From IMG/VR virus record IMGVR_UViG_2579778650_000006: a stretch of DNA of 5,022 bases; one strand, given 5' to 3'. The position numbers and the translations under genes are program-made. Positions 2,608-3,878 of the stretch are shown here, one piece after another. Within the stretch, counting starts at the first letter, position 1. Every line of letters starts with the position of its first letter. This DNA is from a virus (Duplodnaviria; Heunggongvirae; Uroviricota; Caudoviricetes). The notes below the pieces were generated by a model, which did no database searches, was not told where the DNA came from, and saw only the letters and a program-made list of their open reading frames with translations.

Positions 2608-3366
2608 TCATTGATTCACCTCCTGCCTGTCGTCCGGCATTCGCTCACTACAGCTTATCCAACCATCCGGAGTTACCGGAGAGTTGCCCGATAGTGCATT
2701 CTGCTCCAGTGATGCTTTTACAAACCACGCTGCCTGAACTATAACGCCATGAATCCAGCGCAAATCAGCATCGCGATCTTTCTTTTTCATCTTTTCGCCA
2801 CTTAAGGCCTTGCTTATGTGGCTGCGTACCAGGTCTTCATGTAATTCCTTCGCCTCCTCAATGGTGAAACCACCAGGCAGAAGAGCCGGAGTTACCGGAG
2901 AGCTGGTTGACGCTTCCGGGATTTCCCGAAAATTATTGGTTGACGAATTCTTGCTTTCCCGAAAGTTTCCGGACTGAAGCATGGCGGTGCGGCAGGCGTT
3001 CCATATTTCGGCAGCAATATCGCGCTCGCTATCGGTTAATTTGTACGTGGAAACATAGCCAGAGAGCATTTCTACGTTTTCCGGAGTTGCTTCTTCCGGC
3101 ACTACCGGCGCTGGCGGGGCGGCAAATAGATATCCGCCAAAGTCAGGAAGCTCTCCAATGGCCTGTACGAACTTTTGTTTGCCTACGTCAACTCCTAATG
3201 GGTAATGAGCTATAATCTTTGCCACCGGCTCTGCTTCCAGCGATACCAGTGCAATTCGTGCCAGTTCTTCCGCTTCTTCTGCTGGCAGTACAACGTTGCT
3301 ACCCGGTCCGTATGTTTCGCGCCACTGCTTGATTGTCAGCAGTCGCCCTTTGGTAATAGTGATCAT
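2608..3366 (-). CDS. Hypothetical phage protein, 252 aa, containing an internal SPVTP duplication.
   Basis: ATG at 3364-3366 overlaps the stop of the upstream gene as ATGA. SD AAGGA lies ~8 nt upstream. Stop TGA at 2608-2610. I recognise no family. Confidence 0.8.
   Translation of the reverse strand: MITITKGRLLTIKQWRETYGPGSNVVLPAEEAEELARIALVSLEAEPVAKIIAHYPLGVDVGKQKFVQAIGELPDFGGYLFAAPPAPVVPEEATPENVEMLSGYVSTYKLTDSERDIAAEIWNACRTAMLQSGNFRESKNSSTNNFREIPEASTSSPVTPALLPGGFTIEEAKELHEDLVRSHISKALSGEKMKKKDRDADLRWIHGVIVQAAWFVKASLEQNALSGNSPVTPDGWISCSERMPDDRQEVNQ
2667..2683. repeat. Copy 1 of an exact 17-bp direct repeat CCGGAGTTACCGGAGAG.
   Basis: Identical 17-mer at 2667-2683 and 2886-2902, read directly from the sequence. 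Confidence 0.9.
2886..2902. repeat. Copy 2 of the exact 17-bp direct repeat CCGGAGTTACCGGAGAG.
   Basis: Identical to 2667-2683. The offset is 219 bp, a multiple of 3. Both copies lie inside the 252-aa CDS and encode SPVTP. Confidence 0.9.
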
Positions 3367-3878
3367 GCCGCGTTTCCTTCTTTCTTATTAACAATCACAC
3401 CGTCATATATTTCATTAAGGTGCCCTCTCAACTCCATGCGCCTTAATGCAGATAACATGTAATCGCATTCAACCTGCTTATTCCCAGTAAATGGCTTATC
3501 GTCAGGATTACCCCAACAGCAATTACCCCTGGGCCATCCATGTACTTTCCGTACTCTTCCGTTAACAACGTGAAGTAATCCCCAGCCGGGAGGTAAATCC
3601 TCAACTGAAATAATTTCCGGCTCACTAATAAAGAATCGCCAGTCGCCCATGCCAAGTGAGGGATTTTTACGGAAACGCTTTTTTCTATCTGCCAACAAGT
3701 CAGCACGAGAACACTTCGCCTCTATCAGGCATGATGCTGAATTTCTGAATCCCATAGCATCTGGCTGTTCTCCGGTACTGGTTACAGCAACAAAGCGGTC
3801 ATGAAAGCAAACCTTGAACCCGTTGCGCTTAAGGAACTTGTACGCAATCTGACAGAGTTCGTGGTGTGTTAACGCCAT
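3363..3878 (-). CDS. Putative PD-(D/E)xK-fold nuclease-like protein, 171 aa from ATG 3876-3878 (possibly MmcB-like).
   Basis: ATG at 3876-3878 has SD AAAGGAGAG ~5 nt upstream. The track start at 3911 is a TTG without an RBS, so I place the start at the ATG. Motif E7 ... P39-D40 ... E53-A54-K55 (GEQPDAMGF...CLIEAKCSRADLLAD) fits a PD-(D/E)xK active site. C-terminal half is Cys/Trp-rich (GNCCWGNPDD). Stop TGA at 3363-3365 overlaps the next start. Confidence 0.75.
   Translation of the reverse strand: MALTHHELCQIAYKFLKRNGFKVCFHDRFVAVTSTGEQPDAMGFRNSASCLIEAKCSRADLLADRKKRFRKNPSLGMGDWRFFISEPEIISVEDLPPGWGLLHVVNGRVRKVHGWPRGNCCWGNPDDKPFTGNKQVECDYMLSALRRMELRGHLNEIYDGVIVNKKEGNAA

What the first reader, a model, noticed from the sequence alone, without database searches (positions are those of the whole stretch)
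3363..3878. 171-aa protein with a PD-(D/E)xK active-site motif and a Cys-rich C-terminal half
The sequence shows E7, then P39-D40, then E53-x-K55, with spacing typical of restriction-endonuclease-like folds, followed by SRADLLAD. I think this resembles MmcB-like (DUF1052) proteins, from memory. The C-terminal half carries clustered Cys, Trp and His (HGWPRGNCCWGNPDD...ECDY) that could bind a metal or form an extra domain. A small standalone nuclease here is a plausible effector.
Basis: partly seen in the sequence, partly recalled or inferred. Interest (0 to 1): 0.6.

Follow-up and report, generated by a model that had tools for sequence, protein, structure and literature searches.

The report
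Phage MmcB-like PD-(D/E)xK nuclease gene
This is an intact gene in an E. coli prophage remnant for a small DNA-cutting enzyme of the restriction-endonuclease fold, a distant phage relative of the bacterial repair protein MmcB; it is an ordinary kind of protein, but its family is large, unnamed and wrongly marked as a broken gene in reference genomes.

Summary
The 171-codon ORF is real.

It encodes one PD-(D/E)xK domain. The AlphaFold model (pLDDT 85.7) has the alpha-beta-beta-beta-alpha-beta core, with D40 at the start of strand 2 and E53-x-K55 at the end of strand 3. D40, E53 and K55 are kept in about 100% of 205 diverse homologues.

The Cys-rich metal-site or extra-domain idea fails: no cysteine is conserved, and the C-terminal half belongs to the same fold. 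E7 is only half conserved.

The family is large (3246 clusters at 50% identity), found here only in phages and prophages, and has no Pfam model. It sits in early DNA-metabolism regions and directly upstream of primase in lytic phages.

The most likely role is a Mg2+-dependent endonuclease for branched or damaged DNA; that role is inferred, not shown. No evidence supports a defence effector. Interest is low to moderate.

The parts
3363..3878 (-). CDS of 171 aa plus stop: a single-domain MmcB-like PD-(D/E)xK nuclease of the phage family PHROG 9263/631
3885..3890 (-). Shine-Dalgarno AAGGAG, 6 nt upstream of the ATG, inside the last codons (…IKGE*) of the upstream Ea22-like gene
   Evidence: Read from the sequence. 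The same …GIRIKGE* junction precedes the gene behind different upstream genes in E. coli prophages.
3759..3761 (-). Codon GAT for D40, the 'PD' aspartate at the start of beta-strand 2
   Evidence: Sequence. About 100% conserved in 205 homologues. Aligns with Hjc D42.
3714..3722 (-). Codons GAG-GCG-AAG for E53-A54-K55, the (D/E)xK motif at the end of beta-strand 3
   Evidence: Sequence. About 100% conserved. Aligns with Hjc E55/K57. This is the site of the 2-bp deletion in the O157:H7 allele.
3687..3710 (-). Codons for S57-R-A-D-L-L-A-D64, the alpha-2 signature SRxDFxxD shared with true MmcB proteins
   Evidence: S57 92%, R58 95%, D60 100%, D64 99%. Invariant together with Ruegeria MmcB. Aligned by hhalign.
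3436..3479 (-). Codons for residues ~134-148, the C-terminal helix with E137 and the ALRR146-147 motif; part of the MmcB-like fold, not an added domain
   Evidence: Helix 134-150 in the model. E137 96%, R146 and R147 90% each. Global hhalign pairs SALRRM with HAARRL of MmcB.
2608..3366 (-). Downstream 252-aa mosaic phage protein (DUF551 fragment at its C-terminus). Its ATG overlaps the target's TGA (ATGA), so translation is probably coupled.
   Evidence: ORF list. Pfam DUF551 E=7e-5. The commonest downstream neighbour in 80 E. coli prophage loci.
3880..4365 (-). Upstream Ead/Ea22-like gene of the same operon; its stop lies 1 nt before the target's ATG
   Evidence: Pfam PF13935 E=4e-31. The upstream neighbour in 48 of the loci sampled.

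Best explanation
The ORF is a functional gene of the early-left (int-proximal) accessory operon of a lambdoid prophage integrated in mlrA. It encodes a compact, single-domain enzyme of the PD-(D/E)xK (restriction-endonuclease-like) fold. The family is large, was found here only in phages and prophages, has no Pfam model, and is a remote sister of the MmcB-like DNA repair nucleases (PF06319, structure 3DNX). Inferred mechanism: D40 and E53, probably helped by the near-invariant E37 and the acidic residue at position 27, hold Mg2+. K55 positions and activates the attacking water. A belt of invariant basic and aromatic residues (R58, K67, R70, R81, W99, R146/R147) holds DNA. The enzyme has no separate recognition domain and travels with phage replication and recombination genes. 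It therefore most likely cuts DNA by structure or by lesion (branched, stalled-fork or damaged DNA) during early phage DNA metabolism, rather than at a specific sequence. Shown here: the fold, the homology, conservation of the active site, and the genomic contexts. Inferred: nuclease activity, metal dependence, substrate and biological role.
Against: There are no biochemical data for any member of this family, or for 3DNX. The protein does not reach any curated Pfam or NCBIfam threshold. Contexts vary: one relative lies just upstream of a portal gene (the 615-aa gene before it has no PHROG match), and two lie behind a methyltransferase, so no single partner or pathway is implied. The prophage carrying the identical gene already has RusA, and a Pseudohongiella prophage has a resolvase two genes downstream, so junction resolution would be redundant there. 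I could not inspect model coordinates, so clustering of D40/E53/K55 rests on secondary-structure positions and on alignment to Hjc, not on measured distances. In this window the operon's upstream part is replaced by an IS21-like end, and no minus-strand promoter-like site was found in 2500-5022, so expression in this host is doubtful.
Confidence: 0.62

Rival explanations
1. It is specifically a Holliday-junction resolvase of the Hjc type. A dimer would resolve recombination or replication branches before packaging.
For: 30 of 49 distant family members give sub-threshold Pfam Hjc hits, best E=1.3e-4. The family profile aligns PD…ExK-SR-D with Hjc 1hh1 at E=0.11. One relative lies in a nin-like region, where phage resolvases usually sit.
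Confidence: 0.13
2. It is a toxic effector of prophage-encoded defence or superinfection exclusion. It would degrade incoming or host DNA when triggered.
For: It lies in a mosaic accessory region between xis and the recombination genes, where such morons are common. About a quarter of E. coli copies carry a 2-bp deletion exactly in the catalytic E53 codon, which is compatible with a cost of the active enzyme.
Against: No PADLOC model matches it or its neighbours. No sensor or partner gene is conserved next to it. It is conserved in strictly lytic phages beside primase and helicase genes. The deletion allele appears mainly in O157:H7 records, so it may be one clonally inherited event.
Confidence: 0.1
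3. It is the nuclease half of a small phage-borne restriction-modification-like pair, or a host-DNA-degrading or anti-defence nuclease.
Against: Most contexts have no methyltransferase, including this window and all 80 E. coli loci. The protein has only the catalytic core and no recognition domain. Lambdoid phages have no modified DNA to protect themselves with.
Confidence: 0.08
4. It is a decaying pseudogene or a non-coding chance ORF, as the RefSeq label 'frameshifted' implies.
For: PGAP annotates only the first 179 nt as a frameshifted pseudogene in three records. In this window the gene sits in an IS-bounded prophage remnant.
Against: The reading frame is uninterrupted for 171 codons. All 80 IMG/VR loci keep it intact. 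Homologues down to about 35% identity keep the full length and the active site. The model is confident. The PGAP label comes from a 58-aa reference protein, which is the truncated O157:H7 allele.
Confidence: 0.03

Closest known systems
MmcB-like DNA repair protein family (Pfam PF06319, formerly DUF1052; structure 3DNX, SPO1766 of Ruegeria pomeroyi; Caulobacter MmcB)
   Different: It fails Pfam's threshold entirely. It has P39 before the aspartate and an invariant E37 where MmcB has 'LRVD'. It carries a 7-residue basic insertion (KKxFRxxPxxGMG) after helix 2, an invariant GWGLL and E137. MmcB is described as a chromosomal, SOS-regulated gene, mostly of alpha-proteobacteria (PMC3424549, PMC9578287). 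This family was found here in phages and prophages of gamma-proteobacteria, vibrios and a cyanophage.
Archaeal Holliday junction resolvase Hjc (Pfam PF01870; 1HH1)
   Same: It is a minimal PD-(D/E)xK protein of about 140-170 aa. The catalytic D/E/K align (D40/E53/K55 with D42/E55/K57) and are followed by S-R-x-D. There are sub-threshold Pfam hits in 30 of 49 relatives.
   Different: Structural similarity is much weaker than to 3DNX. The first catalytic glutamate is not conserved. The hairpin 100-113 and the C-terminal helix follow MmcB, not Hjc. Dimerisation and junction cleavage are untested.
PHROG 631 / PHROG 9263 (phage protein families of unknown function)
   Same: The protein is a full-length member: E=1e-120 for PHROG 9263 and 1.5e-93 for PHROG 631. 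The Ackermannviridae and Vibrio phage homologues fall in the same PHROGs.
   Different: These families carry no functional annotation. The link to MmcB-like, the active-site analysis and the context survey were added here.

Membership tests
PD-(D/E)xK phosphodiesterase superfamily (restriction-endonuclease-like fold) | alpha-beta-beta-beta-alpha-beta core | tested here: met
   [not shown]
PD-(D/E)xK phosphodiesterase superfamily (restriction-endonuclease-like fold) | Conserved D … (D/E)-x-K motif at the start of strand 2 and the end of strand 3 | tested here: met
   D40, E53 and K55 are about 100% conserved in 205 diverse homologues. Their positions relative to the strands are canonical. They align with Hjc D42/E55/K57.
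PD-(D/E)xK phosphodiesterase superfamily (restriction-endonuclease-like fold) | Metal-dependent phosphodiester hydrolysis | not testable with these tools
   Needs purified protein and nuclease assays.
MmcB-like (Pfam PF06319) | Score above Pfam's gathering threshold (22 bits) | tested here: not met
   The window protein has no hit at E<=0.1 or E<=1. 13 of 49 distant relatives give only sub-threshold hits, best E=2.9e-4.
MmcB-like (Pfam PF06319) | Homology to bona fide members by profile-profile and structure comparison | tested here: met
   [not shown]
MmcB-like (Pfam PF06319) | Role in resistance to mitomycin C and cisplatin; SOS regulation | not testable with these tools
   Known only for Caulobacter MmcB (PMC9578287). 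Here the gene depends on a phage early promoter that is absent from the window.
Hjc Holliday junction resolvase (Pfam PF01870) | Pfam threshold and four catalytic residues E12/D42/E55/K57 | tested here: not met
   No Pfam hit for the window protein. The D/E/K equivalents are conserved, but the E12 equivalent (E7) is E in only 47% of members. The PDB sequence match to 1hh1 has E=0.11.
Hjc Holliday junction resolvase (Pfam PF01870) | Homodimer that makes paired nicks in four-way junctions | not testable with these tools
   No multimer prediction or assay is available.
Cys/His metal-binding (zinc-ribbon-like) C-terminal module | Conserved set of 3-4 Cys/His ligands | tested here: not met
   C120 14%, C121 below 6%, C138 9%, H113 42%, C9 33%, C50 21%, C56 4%. 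The consensus of distant relatives has no Cys in the C-terminal half. The region aligns with MmcB's hairpin and helix.
Known anti-phage defence systems (PADLOC-DB 2.0) | Match of the protein or its neighbours to a defence-system model | tested here: not met
   No family matched at E<=0.1 for the target or five neighbouring proteins.

The most novel reading that the evidence does not exclude
The family is a replication-coupled lesion or fork-processing nuclease that phages carry for their own use. It would be a viral counterpart of MmcB that unhooks crosslinks or cleaves stalled or branched intermediates. That would explain its place in the early operon of SOS/mitomycin-inducible lambdoid and Stx prophages and, independently, directly upstream of the primase gene in lytic Ackermannviridae and Vibrio phages.
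Probability: 0.15. Interest if true: 0.6.

Novelty: new variant of a known kind. Interest (0 to 1): 0.3.

Why it matters
If the inference holds, a very widespread phage gene gains a testable function. It occurs in 928 of 5426 complete E. coli genomes, in Stx-converting phages, in phage-plasmids and in Ackermannviridae, and the family has more than 3000 clusters at 50% identity. It would also give the almost unstudied MmcB-like branch of PD-(D/E)xK nucleases a tractable phage model. There is a practical point too. RefSeq marks the intact gene as a frameshifted pseudogene because its reference protein is the truncated O157:H7 allele, and many Stx-phage records do not annotate it at all. A family model would correct many genome annotations (928 complete E. 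coli genomes carry the gene). As biology it is an expected kind of protein in an expected place.

Tried and rejected
- **Curated libraries.** Pfam, NCBIfam and PADLOC scans of the protein found nothing.
- **Sequence search of the PDB.** The single sequence gave only noise. A close-relative profile put 3dnx at E=0.61. Only the diverse profile made the hit significant.
- **Cys/His metal site.** Rejected on conservation.
- **Literature.** Searches for MmcB, DUF1052, SPO1766 and MmcB-like in phages found only the PD-(D/E)XK catalogue, an SOS review and genome notes. No functional study of this family turned up.
- **Fusion partners.** Longer relatives showed TniB-like ATPase, DUF551 and dATP/dGTP pyrophosphohydrolase. 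These look like read-through of neighbouring genes and were not informative.
- **Context survey.** The search for related loci failed with the diverse alignment because no stretch was conserved enough. With the close alignment it returned only near-identical E. coli prophages, so a systematic context survey across the family was not possible.
- **AFDB50 fold search.** Unavailable.
- **Source of the window.** The plasmid collection does not hold the window.
- **Promoters.** No minus-strand promoter-like sites in 2500-5022.

Full report
**1. The observation**

The window is the int-proximal end of a lambdoid prophage inserted in E. coli mlrA (yehV). All its genes are on the minus strand:
- mlrA' at 95-475
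- integrase at 550-1836
- excisionase at 1870-2124
- a 44-aa ORF
- a DUF4222 protein
- a 252-aa mosaic protein with a DUF551 fragment, at 2608-3366
- the target, at 3363-3878
- two Ead/Ea22-like genes, at 3880-4365 and 4362-4868

Window 98-4927 is 100% identical to E. coli O111:H2 strain 12A.

Its ATG follows AAGGAG after a 6-nt spacer. Its TGA overlaps the ATG of the next gene (ATGA), which is typical of a tightly packed phage operon.

**2. Is it a real gene and more than chance?**

Yes.
- The word-indexed search found 308 proteins at E<=0.001, all unnamed 'hypothetical' proteins, mostly from Enterobacterales.
- An exhaustive profile search found 3246 cluster representatives at E<=0.001 and 2458 at E<=1e-10.
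- In an alignment of 205 diverse members, D40, E53, K55, D60, K67, R70, G78 and R81 are about 100% conserved. E37, D64, W99 and L101 are 99% conserved. P39, P96 and E137 are 96% conserved, and position 27 is acidic in 98%.
- E7 is E in only 47% of members.
- No cysteine is conserved (4-33%), and H113 is H in 42%.

**3. Fold**

AlphaFold2 on a 37-sequence alignment gave pLDDT 85.7 and pTM 0.80. The element order is helix 5-18, strands 23-26, 41-45 and 48-54, helix 58-65, strand 80-85, a hairpin at 100-113, and helices at 134-150 and 154-159. This is the alpha-beta-beta-beta-alpha-beta core, with D40 just before strand 2 and E53-x-K55 at the end of strand 3.

- Foldseek against the PDB: only 3dnx is significant, E=6e-6.
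- BFVD: the matches include phage proteins that UniProt names 'MmcB-like'.

I could not read model coordinates. Spatial clustering of the triad is therefore inferred from topology and alignment, not measured.

**4. Relation to MmcB-like**

A 90-residue fragment of the 3dnx chain scores PF06319 (MmcB-like) at E=2.4e-30, so the recalled resemblance can be tested directly.
- The window protein does not hit PF06319 at E<=1.
- Of 49 distant relatives, 13 give sub-threshold MmcB-like hits and 30 give sub-threshold Hjc hits.
- The family profile finds 3dnx at E=1.6e-4 and Hjc 1hh1 at E=0.11.
- Profile-profile comparison with 26 true MmcB proteins gives 97.9% probability (E=6.5e-13). In global mode it gives 98.3% over 140 columns, reaching the C-terminal helix, where SALRRM pairs with HAARRL.
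- In a joint alignment with Ruegeria MmcB, the invariant positions are D40, G43, E53, K55, S57, R58, D60, D64, G76, R81, P96, G100 and L101.

The whole protein is thus one MmcB-like domain and a remote sister family, not a Pfam member. It differs by invariant E37 and P39, a 7-residue basic insertion after helix 2, the GWGLL motif and E137.

In the Hjc alignment, D40/E53/K55 fall on D42/E55/K57. These belong to the Hjc catalytic centre E12/D42/E55/K57 (PMC6555300).

**5. Context**

Temperate phages carry the gene in early operons:
- near int/xis in this window and in 80 E. coli IMG/VR loci, usually between an Ea22-like and a DUF551-type gene
- after RdgC and a DNA methyltransferase in a Kushneria prophage
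- near AlpA/int in Vibrio phage pVa5, whose authors had already noted an SPO1766-like structure
- downstream of bet-exo-ssb in a cyanophage
- after the replication genes and before DUF968 and a resolvase in a Pseudohongiella prophage
- just upstream of a portal gene, after a 615-aa protein with no PHROG match, in a Thioalbus element

In lytic phages it sits directly upstream of, and often overlapping, the DNA primase gene: Salmonella phage PhiSH19 (Ackermannviridae), Vibrio phage CC6 (Mardecavirus) and Vibrio phage Bakedbeans. tblastn finds it in 642 phage records.

No partner gene is constant, and no PADLOC model matches.

**6. How it most likely works**

This section is inference. D40 and E53, with E37 and the acid at position 27 nearby, would bind Mg2+. 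K55 would activate water. The invariant basic and aromatic residues would bind DNA. With no recognition domain and a replication/recombination neighbourhood, a structure- or lesion-specific endonuclease is the most economical reading. MmcB itself is described as a PD-(D/E)XK endonuclease that protects Caulobacter against mitomycin C and cisplatin (PMC9578287). DUF1052/3dnx is listed in the PD-(D/E)XK catalogue (PMC3424549).

The rivals are weaker:
- **Dedicated Hjc-like resolvase.** Structural similarity is weak, and the role would be redundant with RusA or another resolvase.
- **Defence effector.** No sensor or partner gene, and the gene is present in lytic replication modules.
- **Restriction-modification-like or host-degrading nuclease.** A methyltransferase is adjacent in only two contexts.
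- **Pseudogene.** Refuted by the intact, conserved frame.

**7. Side findings**

- **Mis-annotation.** PGAP annotates only the first 179 nt as 'hypothetical protein, frameshifted' in records whose ORF is intact. The O157:H7 allele has a 2-bp deletion inside the E53 codon (ATAGAGGCG becomes AT--TGGCG). This yields a 58-aa product, WP_001356547.1, plus an unannotated remainder. That truncated protein evidently serves as the reference.
- **Frequency of the deletion.** A 70-nt probe of the deletion allele matches 216 of 883 E. coli records at >=99%. The gene as a whole occurs in 928 of 5426 complete genomes, with 248 places on plasmids, including a 119-kb plasmid that carries phd/doc.
- **Window ends.** Window 1-97 is an IS66-like end that cuts mlrA. 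Window 4928-5022 is an IS21-like (IS100kyp) end that cuts the Ea22 region. No complete E. coli genome or plasmid holds both junctions. The source locus is therefore an IS-bounded prophage remnant that lacks the early promoter, and no minus-strand promoter-like site was found in 2500-5022.

**8. Verdict**

The protein is a divergent, phage-borne variant of a known kind, a PD-(D/E)xK nuclease of the MmcB-like branch. It belongs to a large family that lacks a curated model and any experimental study. Interest is low to moderate (0.3). The most novel reading still open is a replication-coupled phage repair nuclease (probability about 0.15).

Noticed in passing
window 3700-3878 (equals NZ_CP077479.1 1896930-1897108); also L008 5001-5179 and L009 1501-1679: RefSeq/PGAP labels the first 179 nt of the intact 171-codon ORF 'hypothetical protein, frameshifted' and leaves the rest unannotated. 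Several Stx-converting phage records annotate nothing there. The reference protein appears to be the 58-aa truncated O157:H7 product WP_001356547.1.
   Followed up: yes
[not shown]
   Followed up: partly
window 1-97 and 4928-5022: The left end is an IS66-like terminus (tnpA side) that truncates mlrA. The right end is an IS21-like (IS100kyp) terminus that truncates the Ea22-like region. The locus is thus a 4.8-kb IS-bounded prophage remnant without its early promoter. No complete E. coli genome or PLSDB plasmid contains both junctions.
   Followed up: partly
L006 4980-6661 (PhiSH19), L005 5863-7607 (Vibrio phage CC6), L012 4001-5781 (Vibrio phage Bakedbeans): In lytic Ackermannviridae and Vibrio phages the homologue (about 205-227 aa) lies immediately upstream of the DNA primase gene, abutting or overlapping it in two of the three. 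This hints at a replisome-linked role.
   Followed up: partly
L004 7279-8492 (Kushneria prophage); L010 3788-4486 (Yersinia phage P400): A DNA methyltransferase (PHROG 757) overlaps the start of the homologue by 4 nt in Kushneria. A 65-aa 'methyltransferase domain' ORF abuts it in phage P400. This adjacency is absent from the window and the E. coli loci.
   Followed up: no
window 3880-3900; L014-L093 upstream junctions: At least three unrelated upstream genes in E. coli prophages end with the same …GIRIKGE* or …KGE* tail, which carries the target's Shine-Dalgarno site. It looks like a conserved module junction used in mosaic recombination.
   Followed up: partly
L008 (NZ_CP062839.1, 118,942-bp plasmid); 248 plasmid places in E. 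coli genomes: The same gene, with an intact frame, is carried on about 95-119-kb plasmids with phd/doc, an S24 peptidase and DUF968. These look like P1-like phage-plasmids, and the gene is again flanked by Ea22-like genes.
   Followed up: no
OK042081.1 2674-3174; KX581096.3 3761-4453; MT225100.1 28431-28943: GenBank phage records give the homologue spurious or odd names. OK042081 calls it 'adenylosuccinate synthase' and KX581096 'structural protein spo1766 structure'. In MT225100 a 'valyl-tRNA synthetase' feature lies under the match, beside a 'hypothetical protein'.
   Followed up: no
window 2608-3366 (-): The downstream 252-aa protein matches only the first 16 positions of the DUF551 model, at its extreme C-terminus. 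It belongs to a highly mosaic set of neighbours (128-431 aa) that share the N-terminal MITITKG… and the …NSPVTPDGWISCSERMP segments.
   Followed up: no
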